64,000 nt of DNA from a virus (Duplodnaviria; Caudoviricetes). Shown here in pieces: positions 10,892 through 21,388 of the stretch. Each line of letters begins with the position of its first letter. Positions within the stretch are counted from its first letter, which is position 1. The notes under the pieces are model-generated. The model did no database searches and had not been told where the DNA came from. It was given only the letters and a program-made list of their open reading frames with translations. The position numbers were made by a program, and so were the translations under genes. The stretch is from positions 1 to 64,000 of IMG/VR virus record IMGVR_UViG_3300032038_000025; one strand, written 5' to 3'.

Positions 10892-11448
10892 GCCGCGATA
10901 TTCTAATTGGTAAGGAGTCGGTCTTGAAATTTAACATTATAGTTTTAAAATAATGTAATGAATGATACTCAATATAAGGGTGCTTTAACATAGCAAAAAT
11001 GTTTTTTAAAGTGTATTGAAATGGGTTTTACAGTTTCTAAACCAATTTTTGATAATGCTAGATATGATTTTATTTTAGATACGGGAAATAATTTATTAAA
11101 AATACAAGTAAAAACTTCTCGTTGGAAAGATGAAGAACATTCTGGTTTTATATTTAATTGTTATAGTCAGCACTCTTTATCAACTGGTAATAAAGTAATG
11201 AAATATACAAAAAAAGAAATTGATTTTTTTATGACCGAACAAGAAGGAATATTTTATTTATATCCTGCTCCAGAATAGGGTTTAAAAGAAAAAACTTTAA
11301 GAATTTTACCTGCAAAATCTGGACAAGTTAAAAATATTTCTTTTGCAAAGGATTATATATTTGAGGAGGTTATAAAAGACTATTAATTGCAATTTCAAAA
11401 CCGATGTTCGTGATGAGCGGATTGGGGGTTCGAGTCCCTCTCGCGGCG
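10892..11448 (+). tRNA. tRNA-Ser(TGA) split in the anticodon loop by an insertion of about 470 nt
   Basis: 5' half GCCGCGA..TCGGT-CTTGAA and 3' half ACCGA..TCGCGGC-G reassemble into a class II cloverleaf. Confidence 0.85.
10958..11386 (+). CDS. PD-(D/E)XK homing endonuclease, I-Ssp6803I-like (2 in-frame TAG)
   Basis: KGALT*Q...KP..D..RYDFILD...KIQVKTS; 142 aa with read-through; lies inside tRNA-Ser. Confidence 0.85.
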
Positions 11449-13224: not shown

Positions 13225-13290
13225 TGGAACGAAGTTTTTCAGGCAAAAACACTCGCGGAGAGAATGTGGGTTCAATCCCCACCGTTCCAT
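13225..13290 (+). ncRNA. tRNA-like RNA with truncated anticodon arm
   Basis: Perfect acceptor TGGAACG/CGTTCCA, D and T arms; anticodon arm reduced to CTC-GCG-GAG. Confidence 0.6.
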
Positions 13291-15212: not shown

Positions 15213-15218
15213 CTGTTT

Positions 15219-15633
15219 GCGGGCGTGGCGTAAGGGCAGCCGCACGGGACTTTTTCCTAACAAACTATAAAGGAGAGCCTTATAGTGGAAACATTATAAG
15301 TGTAGGTGGCTAATTCGGCGAAAGGTTAGGCAACGCCGAGCTAAATTAAAATAATAGTGCCAATGAAGGTTGGTTTGGGAGTTAACCCAAATAAGATGCA
15401 AGACAGGGCGGAGGTCGCGCCTCCATAAAACCTTAGATATAGGCGAGGGACTGACTAAGGGGAAACTATTATTTTATAAATGTGTAGAGACTATATACCA
15501 TCTACCTAAGTCAGAAATGATATGGTAAAGACATAGTCCAGACTACAACGCTAATGGGCGGCTATGGTGACATAGAGTAGTAAGAAAATCCCGGGGACGA
15601 GAGTCCGTGTGAGTTCGAATCTCACCGCCCGCA
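15219..15633 (+). tRNA. tRNA-Leu(TAA) containing a group I intron
   Basis: Exons CGGGA-CTT | AAAA-TCCCG rejoin to give the UAA anticodon. Confidence 0.85.
15253..15584 (+). mobile_element. group I intron without an ORF, after U34 of tRNA-Leu
   Basis: 5' exon ends in U, intron ends in G; core-like GTAGAGACTA and GACATAGTCC segments. Confidence 0.8.
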
Positions 15634-15639
15634 TTTTTT

Positions 15640-16402: not shown

Positions 16403-16473
16403 CGAGAATGTGGTGTAATGGTAGCACGCCAGTTTTGGGAACTGGAGGCGAGGTTCGAATCCTACATTTTCGA
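16403..16473 (+). tRNA. tRNA-Pro(TGG)
   Basis: CCAGT-TTTGGGA-ACTGG. Confidence 0.8.
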
Positions 16474-17556: not shown

Positions 17557-17936
17557 TTTTCTGCGGGAAGAACAATATCAAATAATATTGTAGGTATGGT
17601 GAAATGATATATCCGCCTCAAAACAGAAACTGTCTCAGCAGTAATATTATAATACATTAAAACAGTTGAATTGTAAATAATTTTGATTTTGTCGGTTTAT
17701 AATCCAAGACTGAGATATTGGAGTGATCAGCTGCACTTAATAAATAAACGATAAAATTCGTAGATGAAATTATAAACTATATTATTTGAAAAACAAGGGA
17801 ATAGGATGAGGAGCGGCGATGCAGACCACTTAATAATGTCTAGGCATCAAGTAGTTTTAGAATAATATAGTTTATAAGGAAGTCTAAAAAATATTTGATT
17901 TTTAATAAAAATTTTGATATAATATATATATAAAGT

Positions 17937-18054
17937 TAAGACATTTACAGCAAACATTAAAAAAATATTATATTGTCGTGAGTTCAAGTCTCATCTTTTT
18001 CCGAGCGAAAGAGTAGATCAGCTGGTAGATCAAATAATAAATTAAATGTCTTGA
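17937..18054 (+). ncRNA. stem-ACAGCAA module 3 with circularly permuted tRNA domain (YrlA/Y-RNA-like)
   Basis: Order is T arm (17978-17994), loop-closed acceptor (17995-18013), D arm (18016-18031), inside the AAGACATTT/AAATGTCTT stem. Confidence 0.75.
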
Positions 18055-18058
18055 TTAA

Positions 18059-18212: not shown

Positions 18213-18343
18213 GGGAGATTAGGCTAATAGGTAAACCGCGTTATGTTAAAACATCGGTTTTGTAAAAACCCGAATCAGCAAATTTAAATGATAAACAGTT
18301 GCTTGGGGCGCACGTATTAGAGGTTCGAGTCCTCTATCTCCTA
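18213..18343 (+). tRNA. tRNA-Pro(GGG) with a 59-nt insertion in the anticodon stem
   Basis: Removing about 18242-18300 restores CGTGC-TTGGGGC-GCACG. Confidence 0.65.
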
Positions 18344-18346
18344 TTA

Positions 18347-18499
18347 AAAATCAACTTATAGTGAGTGAAAGCCTAACGACAGGGGAGGAAAAGGAATCGC
18401 AAGGGTAACATTTTTCTCGTCGGACATTACCCAATCCGAAAAATCGGGTCTTACGCTAGATTGACCGACGCCGCGGAAAGTAGCTATAAGTTGATTTTA
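18347..18499 (+). ncRNA. structured RNA candidate closed by a 15-bp stem
   Basis: AAAATCAACTTATAG ... CTATAAGTTGATTTT with a GC-richer interior. Confidence 0.45.
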
Positions 18500-18527
18500 T
18501 AAAAAATTTTTGTTATAATATAAATAT

Positions 18528-18593
18528 AAGATATAAACAGCAAAAAATATTAATCGCCACATTTCAAGTTTGATTAGCTTACAATATATCTTG
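18528..18593 (+). ncRNA. stem-ACAGCAA module 5
   Basis: AAGATATA-A-ACAGCAA ... TATATCTTG, after a promoter. Confidence 0.55.
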
Positions 18594-18605
18594 TTTAAAA
18601 ATCTT

Positions 18606-18693
18606 TAGATACTAACAGCAATTTAATTTAACATTATTTAATTTTTAAATCTTGATGTAAAGAATAAAAACTTAAATTTTTAAAGGTATCTAG
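18606..18693 (+). ncRNA. stem-ACAGCAA module 6
   Basis: TAGATACT-A-ACAGCAA ... GGTATCTAG. Confidence 0.55.
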
Positions 18694-19858: not shown

Positions 19859-21388
19859 ATGAATACTTTTCTTAATCAGATGACCAAGGATAACAATATC
19901 ACTCGTACAGAAAATGGCGGCATTACCCGCAAGAGTACAGAATCTAAGGTACTTGATATGTTCGGAATGGGCGGTGCATATAGAAGTCGTTCTGATGCAG
20001 ATGTTATTCTTCTTTTTAAGAATGCATTTGAGGAAGATCGCCTTCTAGCTATGAAGTGTCTATTCTATCTGAGAGACATTCGCGGCGGCCAGGGTGAGAG
20101 GCGCTTCTTTAGAACCGCTTTTCGTTGGCTTTGTAACGAATATCCGCAGGTTGCTAAGGCAAATCTTGAGAATGTCAGTGAATATGGTCGTTGGGATGAT
20201 CTGATCTACGTTGCTGAAGGCACTCAGGTGCAGACCGCCGCATTTAATATTATCAAGCGTCAGCTGGCTCTTGATATCCAGTGTAAAACTCCGTCTCTTC
20301 TTGCAAAATGGATGCCTTCTCAGAATGCTTCTAATGCAGATACTAAAAGACTTGGGCATATTCTGGCAAATTTCTTAGGAATGACTAGCCGCGAGTATCG
20401 CAAGACTCTTTCTACTCTGCGTGAGCGTATTAATGTTCTTGAGAGACTGATGAGCGCAAACCGCTGGGATGAGATTGAGTTTGATAAGATTCCTTCTAAG
20501 GCAGGACTTATTTATCGTAATGCTTTTGCAAGACGAGATATTCTTGCTAAGAAGTATGAAACCTTTGCTAAGAGCAAGAGTACTGAAGTAAATGCAGATG
20601 CGCTGTATCCGCATGATATTGCCCACAGAGCATTTAAAATGTCTGTTAGTCTTGAAGATCCAACTCGTCTTATGCTTCAAAAGTATTGGGATAATCTCAA
20701 AGACTTTTATTGCGGTAGAGAGGAAAATGGTATTGCGGTTATTGATGTGTCTGGCTCTATGAGCGGAGTTCCGATGGAGGCCGCAGTTTCTATGGGAGCT
20801 TATATTGCAGATAAGGCACATGGTCCATTTGCAAATCATTTTATTACTTTTTCTGCTCACCCGCAGCTGGTGAAGTTTGAGGGAGTAGATATTGTTGATA
20901 AATTTAAGCGTTGTGTTCGTGCGGATTGGGGTATGAATACAAATGTGCAGGCAGTGTTTAATATGCTTTTAAATACTGCTAGGAGACAGGGCGTAAAGGC
21001 TGAAGATATGCCGACCAGAATTTATATCTTCTCTGATATGGAGTTTGATGAGTGTGTGTCTTTTGATCGCACCTCTTCTAATCGTTCTTATGATGATTAT
21101 TGGAACGGAAGATGGGATTCTTATCATACTATTAACTCTATTGACGAGGCAAACTCTGACCTTGAGAAGATCAAGTCAGAATGGGCGCATTATGGATATC
21201 AGATGCCTCAGATTATCTTTTGGAATCTTAATGCCAGAAATAATCGGATTCCTGCGATCGGCGATGGATTCAGCTATGTAAGCGGATTCTCCCCTTCCAT
21301 GATTGATTGCATCCTGAGCGGCAAGGATGGTTGGGATCTGATGGTTGAAAAGCTCATGTCTGAGCGCTATAAGGCGGTTACCGCATAA
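19859..21388 (+). CDS. DUF2828-family protein (TROVE/Ro60-like N-terminus plus vWA domain)
   Basis: TENG, RDIRGGQGERR, YGRWDD, AKWMP, MIDAS DVSGSM, FSDMEFD and FWNL motifs. Confidence 0.85.
   Translation: MNTFLNQMTKDNNITRTENGGITRKSTESKVLDMFGMGGAYRSRSDADVILLFKNAFEEDRLLAMKCLFYLRDIRGGQGERRFFRTAFRWLCNEYPQVAKANLENVSEYGRWDDLIYVAEGTQVQTAAFNIIKRQLALDIQCKTPSLLAKWMPSQNASNADTKRLGHILANFLGMTSREYRKTLSTLRERINVLERLMSANRWDEIEFDKIPSKAGLIYRNAFARRDILAKKYETFAKSKSTEVNADALYPHDIAHRAFKMSVSLEDPTRLMLQKYWDNLKDFYCGREENGIAVIDVSGSMSGVPMEAAVSMGAYIADKAHGPFANHFITFSAHPQLVKFEGVDIVDKFKRCVRADWGMNTNVQAVFNMLLNTARRQGVKAEDMPTRIYIFSDMEFDECVSFDRTSSNRSYDDYWNGRWDSYHTINSIDEANSDLEKIKSEWAHYGYQMPQIIFWNLNARNNRIPAIGDGFSYVSGFSPSMIDCILSGKDGWDLMVEKLMSERYKAVTA

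What the first reader, a model, noticed from the sequence alone, without database searches (positions are those of the whole stretch)
18213..18343. tRNA-Pro(GGG) carrying an ACAGCAA-type module inside its anticodon stem
Seen: a 59-nt insert between positions 29 and 30 contains a hairpin (TCGGTT..AACCCGA) followed by ATCAGCAA, i.e. the module in permuted order. The rest of the cloverleaf is intact. It is either a non-canonical intron or an unpermuted tRNA-Y-RNA chimera, and could be an evolutionary intermediate (inference).
Basis: partly seen in the sequence, partly recalled or inferred. Interest (0 to 1): 0.7.

Follow-up and report, generated by a model that had tools for sequence, protein, structure and literature searches.

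The report
tRNA-shaped Y RNA beside phage Ro60-like gene
This phage gene makes an RNA with the full shape of a tRNA, but its anticodon arm carries the conserved docking "handle" of the phage's Y-like RNAs, so it is most likely a partner RNA of the neighbouring Ro60-like ring protein and not a tRNA with an intron.

Summary
Window 18213-18343 (+) is a tRNA cloverleaf with 59 extra bases between positions 29 and 30. The insert holds a hairpin followed by AUCAGCAA.

It is not a one-off. About 30 IMG/VR phage contigs carry the same design, with 25 distinct sequences aligned. A covariance model built without the window scores this element at 77.6 bits (E 2e-16), against 53 bits for the best ordinary tRNA. 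A syntenic ortholog exists with compensatory changes, and other close relatives have deleted the element.

The same modules, in the same circular order, make up the permuted YrlA-like RNAs of these phages. This form is therefore the unpermuted, open-acceptor version of a Y RNA.

These RNAs lie 75-550 nt upstream of DUF2828/DUF7788 genes that are only 34-68% identical to the window's. The predicted fold of the window's protein matches Ro60/Rsr.

The "anticodon" is not conserved between the ortholog and near-identical relatives. Five of 25 loops are not 7 nt long. No ribozyme or splicing endonuclease was found. The intron reading is therefore unlikely, although expression could not be tested.

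Earlier notes of this scan describe the same kind of RNA on other DNA. I found no paper describing it.

The parts
17895..17923 (+). Sigma-70-like promoter (TTGATT-17-TATAAT with an extended TG). It probably drives the unit P-type Y-like RNA / tRNA-Gln / tRNA-Arg / this element / a 146-nt structured RNA. The next such promoter is at 18491-18519.
   Evidence: (consensus scan only) and the sequence.
17938..18050 (+). Context: a permuted (YrlA-architecture) Y-like RNA of the same genome. Order: terminal stem AAGACAUUUA/UAAAUGUCUU, CAGCAA, T arm, acceptor closed by a 5-nt loop, D arm.
   Evidence: Sequence. Weak Rfam YrlA match at 17956-18058, 30.5 bits, E 0.002, below the gathering score of 69.
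18213..18219 (+). Acceptor stem, 5' strand (GGGAGAU). It is preceded by the leader ...UAUAU that many family members share.
   Evidence: The acceptor pairs covary 7/7 across the family.
18222..18237 (+). D arm (GGCU AAUAGGUA AACC) with the conserved G18 G19. One C.A mismatch in the stem.
18239..18241 (+). CGU, tRNA positions 27-29. It pairs with ACG at 18312-18314 to form the first 3 bp of the anticodon stem.
   Evidence: Invariant in 24 family members. In the ortholog L318 it is changed compensatorily to CCG/CGG. Other copies have other complementary stems.
18242..18253 (+). Linker at the start of the insert (UAUGUUAAAACA). Family consensus is UAUAG...
18254..18273 (+). Handle hairpin UCGGUUUU-GUAA-AAACCCGA. 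It is the counterpart of the terminal stem of the permuted Y-like RNAs.
   Evidence: The hairpin covaries at 7 of 7 pairs in the family. Aligned by model R1.
18274..18281 (+). AU + CAGCAA, the conserved single-stranded handle motif directly 3' of the hairpin.
   Evidence: C, G, C, A invariant and both other A's in at least 90% of 25 sequences. The same motif follows the 5' stem strand in 16 permuted RNAs.
18282..18298 (+). Spacer, 17 nt here. This is the longest among the 25 aligned members (5-12 nt in the others).
18299..18311 (+). UUGC + 7-nt anticodon-like loop UUGGGGC + GC. G30-C31 pair with G39-C40. Alternatively UUGC pairs with the GCAA of the motif.
   Evidence: Both pairings are invariant, so covariation does not decide between them. 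Copies that lack UUGC keep the split anticodon stem.
18312..18318 (+). ACG (positions 41-43) and the 4-nt variable region UAUU.
18319..18335 (+). T arm AGAGG UUCGAGU CCUCU.
18336..18343 (+). Acceptor stem 3' strand AUCUCCU and discriminator A73. No CCA is encoded here. CCA is encoded in 6 of 25 family members.
19862..21385 (+). Gene for the presumed protein partner: DUF2828 + DUF7788, predicted to have a Ro60-like fold (TROVE ring plus vWA domain).
   Evidence: Pfam. AlphaFold2 model with pLDDT 78. The top Foldseek PDB hits are all Ro60/Rsr/phage Ro60: 1yvr at E 1.3e-6, TM 0.52.

Best explanation
The element is a stable non-coding RNA. It is the unpermuted ('tRNA-topology') form of the YrlA-like Y RNAs of this phage group.

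Inferred biogenesis: it is transcribed in the tRNA operon from the promoter at about 17895-17923. It is cut out like a tRNA, by RNase P at 18213, with 3' trimming after A73 and CCA addition. It then folds into a tRNA L-shape.

After three base pairs its anticodon stem opens into a junction with two branches. The first is a covarying hairpin followed by single-stranded (A)UCAGCAA. This is the same 'handle' that in the permuted RNAs is formed by the 5' and 3' ends. The second is a 2-bp mini-stem with an anticodon-like loop.

The handle is the predicted docking site of the Ro60-like ring protein encoded 1.5 kb downstream. The tRNA-like body would then present a tRNA look-alike to a second factor, as Y RNAs tether Ro60 to other proteins. 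It probably acts in RNA surveillance or repair during infection.

Shown: family membership, structure conservation, circular permutation relative to the YrlA-like RNAs, linkage to the gene, and the Ro60-like fold of the protein. Inferred: processing, protein binding and biological role.
For: (1) Family. Pattern scans of IMG/VR found the same architecture in about 30 contigs. The 25-sequence alignment has invariant C-GCA, UGC, GCACG and CG at 27-28. In the alignment without the window, 22 of 28 pairs show changes on both sides, 96.9% of cells are paired against 72% in shuffles, and the hairpin covaries at 7/7 pairs.

(2) Model R1, built without the window, scores the element at 77.6 bits, E 2e-16, full length. 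The best ordinary tRNA scores 53 bits. It is the only copy in the 118-kb genome.

(3) Sixteen permuted RNAs have the same modules in the same circular order. They carry features that were not in the search pattern: CG(U/A) after the D arm, UGC, and a covarying 5-10 bp (mostly 8-10) terminal stem abutting CAGCAA. They weakly match Rfam YrlA at 30-36 bits.

(4) Linkage. Unpermuted copies, often 2-3 in tandem, lie 75-550 nt upstream and on the same strand as DUF2828 homologs only 34-68% identical to the window's. Four of five further host contigs encode the protein.

(5) The protein model's best PDB matches are all Ro60/Rsr/TROVE.

(6) The syntenic ortholog L318 keeps the hairpin, UCAGCAA and the T arm. 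It has compensatory changes in the acceptor stem (A4-U69 to G-C) and in the split anticodon stem (CGU/ACG to CCG/CGG).

(7) Literature. YrlA is a tRNA mimic encoded next to Ro60. M. smegmatis YrlA is cut by RNase P and receives CCA, which gives the same open-acceptor shape (PMC4201824; bioRxiv 10.1101/312249).
Against: There is no expression or end-mapping data. RNA-library contigs cover the neighbouring RNAs but not this element.

The window's copy is among the most divergent. It scores 77.6 bits against 90-121 for the members the model was built from. Its hairpin lacks the usual GUCUU/AAGAC. It has the longest spacer and a D-stem mismatch. Close relatives L003/L004 have lost the element.

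Binding of the handle to the DUF2828 protein has never been shown. The motif CAGCAA differs from the GNCGAA motif of YrlA and the GGUCCGA motif of the vertebrate (X. laevis) Y RNA. The protein is Ro60-like by predicted fold only (12-14% identity).

Some family members have perfect 7-nt anticodon loops (CU-UCU-AA, CU-GUU-AA, CU-UUU-AA). This keeps a tRNA-related role for that loop open.
Confidence: 0.75

Rival explanations
1. It is a genuine tRNA-Pro(GGG) gene interrupted by a non-canonical, protein-spliced intron at position 29/30. A nuclease and a ligase remove the insert to give a decoding tRNA.
For: With the 59 nt removed in silico, ARAGORN calls tRNA-Pro(ggg) with U33, G37 and A73. All 24 family members tested this way are tRNA-shaped, and several have flawless anticodon loops. 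The phage encodes two PF09414 RNA ligases. Other tRNA genes of this phage group carry inserts without a recognised ribozyme.
Against: The insert is too short for a group I or group II ribozyme, and Rfam reports no intron. The phage has no tRNA-splicing endonuclease and no RtcB.

The 'exon' anticodon stem (CGU..GC..GCACG) and the 'intron' are conserved together, and also in permuted RNAs that could never yield a tRNA.

The anticodon is not conserved. The ortholog L318 has a 9-nt loop. Near-identical L082 and L122 read UGG and AUG. Leu(gag) readings lack a long variable arm. Five of 25 loops have 6, 8 or 10 nt.

Sister copies replace the whole anticodon loop by the module. The phage already has tRNA-Pro(UGG) at 16403-16473.
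Confidence: 0.07
2. It is a decaying, no longer functional copy of the tRNA-shaped Y-like RNA family in this particular phage.
For: It has one of the lowest model scores in the family (77.6 bits; L318 scores 77.8), a D-stem mismatch, a U.C mismatch in the hairpin, a non-consensus hairpin sequence and an expanded spacer. Relatives with 88% identical DUF2828 have deleted the element and keep only acceptor-like remnants. No RNA contig covers it (weak evidence).
Against: All invariant family positions are intact: CG 27-28, C-GCA, UGC, GCACG, G18, and the T loop. The acceptor stem and T arm are perfect. The differences from the ortholog L318 are compensatory, which indicates selection on structure.
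Confidence: 0.1
3. It is a tRNA decoy or bait that acts on its own, for instance by soaking up or sensing a host anticodon nuclease or a tRNA-modifying enzyme. The link to the Ro60-like protein would then be only one of gene neighbourhood.
For: Anticodon-like loops change between near-identical copies: UCU, GUU and UUU in L101/L118/L126, and UGG and AUG in L082/L122. Lys(UUU) is a known target of anticodon nucleases; for Asn(GUU) and Arg this is my recollection, not checked here. Phage tRNAs are known to counter such nucleases (own knowledge, not tested here).
Against: The most conserved non-tRNA part is the hairpin plus CAGCAA, not the loop. That handle is shared with RNAs that lack any anticodon-like loop. 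It also travels with the Ro60-like gene across proteins only 34-37% identical to the window's.
Confidence: 0.08

Closest known systems
YrlA-type bacterial and mycobacteriophage Y RNAs with Ro60/Rsr (Rfam RF02553; Chen et al. 2014, PMC4201824; Wang et al. 2018, bioRxiv 10.1101/312249)
   Same: A tRNA-like body with conserved D and T arms and a 7-bp acceptor stem. A stem plus a short conserved purine-rich motif as the presumed Ro60 site. Encoded a short distance upstream of, and on the same strand as, a Ro60-type gene, often with several RNAs per locus.
   Different: The topology is reversed. YrlA has its ends in the Ro-binding stem and a loop-closed acceptor ('circularly permuted tRNA', no CCA end, no anticodon loop). 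Here the acceptor is open like a tRNA, the Ro-type stem is closed by a loop, and a mini anticodon-like stem-loop remains. The motif is CAGCAA, not GNCGAA. The protein is DUF2828/DUF7788, Ro60-like only by predicted fold. There is no RF02553 match for this element.
[quoted passage not shown]
   Same: It yields a Ro60-bound tRNA-like RNA with an open 7-bp acceptor stem and a CCA end, which is the shape predicted here.
   Different: There the shape arises by cutting a permuted precursor into two pieces. Here it is encoded directly as one continuous RNA inside a tRNA operon.
Thermus phage phiLo Ro60 with Yrl1/Yrl2 (PMC12135203; PDB 9L5Y, 9KOP)
   Same: A phage-encoded Ro60-type ring protein with Y-like RNAs encoded just upstream. 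The structure is among the best fold matches of the window's protein.
   Different: Yrl1 and Yrl2 were picked by a CGAA motif and are not described as tRNA-shaped. The protein is a recognisable TROVE protein.
Non-canonical tRNA introns of Archaea (bulge-helix-bulge, including position 29/30) and permuted tRNA genes of Cyanidioschyzon (own knowledge, not checked here)
   Same: Extra sequence inside the anticodon stem of a tRNA gene. tRNA detectors report an 'intron'.
   Different: Those are removed by the EndA-type splicing endonuclease and give decoding tRNAs. Here there is no endonuclease gene and no conserved anticodon, and the insert itself is the conserved functional-looking part.
Dictyostelid Class I RNAs (PMC7919456).
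   Same: The paper's text describes a short terminal stem, a conserved roughly 11-nt motif directly 3' of the 5' stem strand, a conserved start AAG and a conserved end CUGU. The phage permuted RNAs start AAGAC..., have CAGCAA after the 5' strand, and end ...GUCUUGU.
   Different: These are eukaryotic RNAs of 42-65 nt without tRNA parts. The letters of their motif are not in the text I could read, so identity with ACAGCAA is from memory only and was not tested.

Membership tests
YrlA (Rfam RF02553; Chen et al. 2014) | Encoded within about 4 kb of a Ro60 ortholog, on the same strand | tested here: met
   The element lies 1.5 kb upstream of, and on the same strand as, the DUF2828/DUF7788 gene. 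That protein's predicted fold best matches Ro60/Rsr. Caveat: Ro60-like by fold only, not a Pfam TROVE hit.
YrlA (Rfam RF02553; Chen et al. 2014) | tRNA-like domain with conserved D and T stem-loops | tested here: met
   G18, G19 and GGUUCGA are conserved, and the D and T stems covary.
YrlA (Rfam RF02553; Chen et al. 2014) | Circularly permuted layout: RNA ends in the Ro-binding stem, acceptor-like stem closed by a loop, no free CCA end | tested here: not met
   The acceptor stem is open (18213-18219 with 18336-18342) and the handle stem is closed by a GUAA loop. The neighbouring RNA at 17938-18050 does have the permuted layout.
YrlA (Rfam RF02553; Chen et al. 2014) | GNCGAAN0-1G motif near the 5' end | tested here: not met
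   The motif is (A)UCAGCAA. The family consensus is ACAGCAA.
YrlA (Rfam RF02553; Chen et al. 2014) | Score at or above the Rfam gathering threshold (69 bits) | tested here: not met
   There is no RF02553 match on the element at E<=1. Permuted relatives reach only 30-36 bits.
YrlA (Rfam RF02553; Chen et al. 2014) | Bound by Ro60/Rsr | not testable with these tools
   Needs RIP or EMSA with the DUF2828 protein.
tRNA-shaped (unpermuted) Y-like RNA family defined here (model R1) | Full-length match to a covariance model built from 24 other members | tested here: met
   77.6 bits, E 2e-16, model positions 1-121.
tRNA-shaped (unpermuted) Y-like RNA family defined here (model R1) | Hairpin followed by C(A/U)GCAA inserted in the anticodon arm, with CG(U) at 27-29 and GCACG at 39-43 | tested here: met
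   All invariant columns are present in the window.
Intron-containing tRNA (group I self-splicing) | Ribozyme core within the insert | tested here: not met
   The insert is 59 nt, and there is no intron family in Rfam at E<=1.
Intron-containing tRNA (protein-spliced, BHB type) | Splicing endonuclease available, and a decodable anticodon arm conserved after removal | tested here: not met
   There is no PF01974 or RtcB in the 88%-complete phage genome; the host was not examined. The anticodon loop is not conserved in the ortholog or in near-identical copies.
Intron-containing tRNA (any) | Spliced RNA observed | tested here: inconclusive
   Four RNA-library contig sets have no cover at 18240-18323 and no joint across the insert. 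Contigs cannot show absence.
Canonical tRNA-Pro | Recognised by standard tRNA models as a contiguous cloverleaf | tested here: not met
   There is no RF00005 hit even at E<=1, and no default ARAGORN call. Relatives L082 and L091 do reach about 50 bits with the insert looped out.

The most novel reading that the evidence does not exclude
The RNA is a CCA-ended tRNA look-alike whose small anticodon-like loop serves as bait for host tRNA-cutting defence nucleases or tRNA-binding enzymes. That loop changes quickly between near-identical copies: UCU, GUU, UUU, NGG. The handle recruits the Ro60-like ring. Together with the phage's two RNA ligases this would form a phage counter-defence particle that senses, shields or repairs cleaved tRNAs. 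This would be a new job for a Ro60/Y-RNA-type particle, and a new natural class of 'tRNA with an extra protein-docking arm'.
Probability: 0.15. Interest if true: 0.85.

Novelty: new variant of a known kind. Interest (0 to 1): 0.6.

Why it matters
Y RNAs and Ro60 are conserved from bacteria to humans, yet what the RNA body recruits is still unclear. Published bacterial Y RNAs are described as circularly permuted tRNA mimics without a CCA end or an anticodon loop. This phage family has the opposite layout: a true tRNA topology with a free acceptor end, processed from tRNA operons, and in this subtype still carrying an anticodon-like loop.

If confirmed, three things follow.
- The tRNA-like body, including possibly its CCA end, is what matters, not the connectivity.
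- It gives a natural, simple system to ask which tRNA-binding factor the Ro60-type particle engages: one RNA, one ring protein, a defined 6-nt motif.
- It assigns a likely RNA partner to the uncharacterised DUF2828/DUF7788 proteins.

There is also a practical point. tRNA finders report these genes as intron-containing tRNAs or miss them, which distorts phage tRNA and codon-usage inventories.

Tried and rejected
- blastn of the element against 80 loci around DUF2828 homologs found only itself. The family is too divergent for blastn, and it was found by motif patterns and a covariance model instead.
- blastn against GenBank phages matched only the neighbouring tRNA-Gln.
- Metatranscriptome contigs from four runs cover 17570-17880 and 18346-18618 but not 18240-18323. 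This allows no statement on expression or splicing.
- A Pfam scan of ten large neighbouring ORFs gave no RNA-repair or RNA-binding domains.
- A sequence search of PDB with the protein profile gave only a marginal vWA-region hit. The Ro60 likeness came from the fold search.
Only 1 of 120 loci (L313, permuted type) is a real member, so nothing can be said about hosts.
- The metagenome scan found no relative closer than 89% with upstream sequence.
- The GCAA/UUGC mini-hairpin predicted by RNAalifold never varies. It is absent in sister copies that keep the split anticodon stem, so I do not rely on it.
- ARAGORN's tRNA-Asn(gtt) reading with a 57-nt intron is rejected. It needs two G.U pairs and a 7-nt variable region, and it is not shared by relatives.
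- The single-sequence MFE fold has no signal (z -0.9).

Full report
**What is there.** The window is the first 64 kb of a 118-kb IMG/VR phage record. It is AT-rich and TAG-recoded, and it has a block of 21 ARAGORN-called tRNA genes at 10.7-19.8 kb.

At 18213-18343 (+), 7 nt after tRNA-Arg, the sequence reads as a cloverleaf:
- acceptor stem GGGAGAU/AUCUCCU;
- D arm;
- CGU at positions 27-29;
- 59 extra nucleotides;
- GC at positions 30-31;
- loop UUGGGGC;
- GCACG;
- a 4-nt variable region;
- a perfect T arm;
- A73.

The insert contains the hairpin UCGGUUUU-GUAA-AAACCCGA, followed by AU-CAGCAA.

Small caveats apply. There is a C.A mismatch in the D stem and a G1.U72 wobble. The insert boundary can shift by one base. 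Standard detectors fail on the element: neither default ARAGORN nor Rfam tRNA reports it, even at E<=1. ARAGORN with introns allowed offers a different and poorer reading.

**It is a conserved family.** Among loci around homologs of the downstream DUF2828 gene, ARAGORN with the intron option and a stem-matching script showed the same design in L038 and L050.

Two pattern scans of IMG/VR and a classification script yielded 25 distinct sequences with this layout. Their alignment has these invariant features:
- U8 and A9, G18, and the T loop;
- CG at positions 27-28;
- C-GCA of the motif;
- UGC;
- GCACG.

On the alignment without the window, 96.9% of cells pair, against 72% in shuffles. Twenty-two of 28 pairs show changes on both sides. 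All 7 pairs of the insert hairpin covary.

Covariance model R1, built from those 24 sequences, scores the window element at 77.6 bits, E 2e-16, over its full length. The best ordinary tRNA reaches 53 bits with the insert deleted. It is the only copy in the genome. Over the other loci, R1 finds about 50 copies in about 30 contigs, frequently 2-3 in tandem.

**It is the circular permutation of the phage's YrlA-like RNAs.** The same scans also returned 16 RNAs in which the acceptor stem is closed by a loop of 3-8 nt and the ends lie in a covarying stem of 5-10 bp, mostly 8-10. Their order is:
- stem 5' strand;
- CAGCAA;
- spacer;
- UGC;
- loop;
- GCACG;
- variable region;
- T arm;
- acceptor 3' strand;
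- closing loop;
- acceptor 5' strand;
- UA;
- D arm;
- N;
- CG(U/A);
- linker;
- stem 3' strand.

This is exactly the order of the window element read circularly. Features that were not part of the search pattern are shared too: CGU, UGC, and the stem abutting the motif.

These permuted RNAs, and the window's own example at 17938-18050, weakly match Rfam YrlA over its tRNA-like part. They score 30-36 bits against a gathering score of 69.

Published work describes YrlA as a 'circularly permuted tRNA' with a loop-closed acceptor, no CCA end and no anticodon loop. It also notes that M. smegmatis YrlA is opened by RNase P and receives CCA (PMC4201824; 10.1101/312249). The element here encodes that open shape directly.

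Fourteen of the 16 closing loops of the permuted RNAs start with A, and several read like discriminator plus the AUAU leader seen upstream of the unpermuted genes, for example ACAUAU. This suggests permutation by tandem duplication. That is inference.

**The partner.** The gene at 19862-21385 has Pfam DUF2828 and DUF7788. An AlphaFold2 model from a 26-sequence alignment has pLDDT 78 and pTM 0.76. Its best PDB matches are all Ro60-type: X. laevis and human Ro60, D. radiodurans Rsr, and Thermus phage phiLo Ro60. The top hit is 1yvr at E 1.3e-6 and TM 0.52 over the whole chain. vWA domains follow.

Unpermuted RNAs lie 130-550 nt upstream, on the same strand, of homologs only 34-37% identical to the window's protein (L086, L101, L118, L126, L158, L168, L172, L176). 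One lies 75 nt upstream of a 68% homolog (L342). Four of five further contigs carrying the RNA encode the protein. This is the criterion by which YrlA RNAs were assigned to Ro60.

**Ortholog and loss.** L318, whose protein is 89% identical, has the element at the syntenic place, between a conserved hairpin and a conserved structured RNA of about 146 nt.
- It keeps the hairpin, UCAGCAA and the T arm.
- It changes A4-U69 to G-C.
- It changes the split anticodon stem from CGU/ACG to CCG/CGG.
- Its 'anticodon loop' has 9 nt.

L003 and L004 (88%) have a deletion there that leaves only acceptor-like remnants. It is not met.

**Sister copies.** Sister copies in other phages show 5-bp anticodon stems of different, complementary sequence capped entirely by the module: AACGG/CUGUU, GCGGC/GCCGC, UCGGA/UCUGA and AUAGU/ACUAU. 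Others show split stems such as ACG|GC with GCCGU.

These support the tRNA-type anticodon stem and define two sub-layouts. In one the loop is replaced by the module. In the other the stem is split and a mini anticodon loop remains. The window belongs to the second.

**Why not an intron.**
- The insert is too short for a ribozyme, and Rfam reports none.
- The phage lacks a tRNA-splicing endonuclease and RtcB, although it has two PF09414 RNA ligases at 74.9 and 83.0 kb.
- With the insert removed, all members look like tRNAs to ARAGORN, but the identities are incoherent.
  - The window reads Pro(ggg) while its ortholog reads 'ata'.
  - Near-identical L082 and L122 read UGG and AUG.
  - Leu(gag) calls lack a long variable arm.
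  - Five of 25 loops have 6, 8 or 10 nt.
- The same 'exon' and 'intron' sequences occur in permuted RNAs that cannot become tRNAs.
- The phage already has tRNA-Pro(UGG).

I could not test expression. Contigs from four RNA libraries cover the neighbours but not the element.

**Proposed mechanism.** A promoter-like site at 17895-17923, and the next at 18491-18519, bracket a unit of permuted Y-like RNA, tRNA-Gln, tRNA-Arg, this element and the structured RNA.

I infer tRNA-type end processing and CCA addition, for two reasons:
- a U at -1 and a conserved AUAU leader;
- CCA encoded in 6 of 25 members.

I also infer an L-shaped fold, docking of the Ro60-like ring on the hairpin plus CAGCAA, and presentation of the tRNA-like body to a second factor.

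The rapid turnover of the anticodon-like triplet between near-identical copies (UCU, GUU, UUU) hints at a bait or mimic role towards tRNA-directed enzymes. This is speculative.

**Novelty.** I found no description of an unpermuted, tRNA-topology Y RNA, or of RNA partners of DUF2828 proteins, in the searchable literature. Earlier notes of this scan report the same kind of RNA on other genomes. I rate it a new variant of a known kind (Ro60/Y RNA, YrlA).

Noticed in passing
window 18346-18502 (+): A structured RNA of about 146 nt, closed by the 12-bp stem AUCAACUUAUAG/CUAUAAGUUGAU (MFE z -3.0). It is conserved at the same place in L004 and L318 and has no Rfam match. RNA-library contigs of three studies cover it, one exactly. 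One contig joins 18502 back to 18346 ('goes back 157'), as a circular or tandem RNA form would, though this could also be an assembly artefact.
   Followed up: partly
window 17570-17880 (+): A non-coding stretch between tRNA-Lys and the promoter at 17895 is covered by metatranscriptome contigs of two studies, one identical over 246 nt. This suggests another abundant RNA.
   Followed up: no
L039:5261-5382, L043:4120-4242, L045:5182-5306: tRNA-Tyr-like and tRNA-Phe-like genes with an intact anticodon arm and an extra insert of about 40 nt ending in CUGCAA or GCAGCA, between the D arm and the anticodon arm. The 5' strand of the anticodon stem is duplicated on both sides of the insert. This may be a third way of attaching the handle to a tRNA body.
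   Followed up: no
L066:2567-2688; L057:85-277; L060:2851-3033: A tRNA-Pro(UGG) with a 49-nt insert in the anticodon loop containing GGCAGCAC, and two tRNAs with 112-nt inserts that contain a T-arm-like hairpin (AUGAGU(U/G)CAA(A/G)UCUCAU) resembling the T arm of the window's permuted RNA.
   Followed up: no
L086:4649-5198, L101:3717-4287, L105:2258-2819: Arrays of three tRNA-shaped Y-like RNAs; in L086 and L101 they lie directly upstream of the Ro60-like gene (none was found in the G005 record that holds L105, 68% complete). They have different anticodon-like loops: GUU, UUU and a 6-nt loop in L086. Some copies have the whole loop replaced by the handle.
   Followed up: partly
L097, L107, L154 (IMG/VR contigs labelled GVMAG): Permuted handle-bearing tRNA-like RNAs (terminal stems such as UUAGGAUCU/GGAUCCUAG, loop AUUAUUA) occur on contigs binned as giant-virus MAGs. 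I did not check whether these are true giant-virus DNA or phage contamination.
   Followed up: no
window 13225-13290 (+): A minimal tRNA-like element with a 7-bp acceptor stem UGGAACG/CGUUCCA, one hairpin and a T arm, but no D arm. It scores 31 bits with model R1 and is not called by ARAGORN or Rfam.
   Followed up: no
window 15214-15636 (+): tRNA halves separated by about 420 nt of structured-looking sequence with no Rfam group I intron match at E<=1. This resembles the ribozyme-less split tRNA-Ser at 10892-11448 noted by another reader.
   Followed up: no
G000 74915-75457 and 83008-83523 (outside the window): Two PF09414 RNA-ligase genes in the same phage. There is no RtcB and no tRNA-splicing endonuclease.
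   Followed up: partly
window 17938-18050 and permuted RNAs: The permuted RNAs begin AAGAC..., carry CAGCAA right after the 5' stem strand, and end ...GUCUUGU. The text of PMC7919456 describes dictyostelid Class I RNAs as starting AAG, ending CUGU, and having a short terminal stem plus a conserved 11-nt motif after the 5' strand. DUF2828 is also a eukaryotic family. The motif letters could not be checked.
   Followed up: partly
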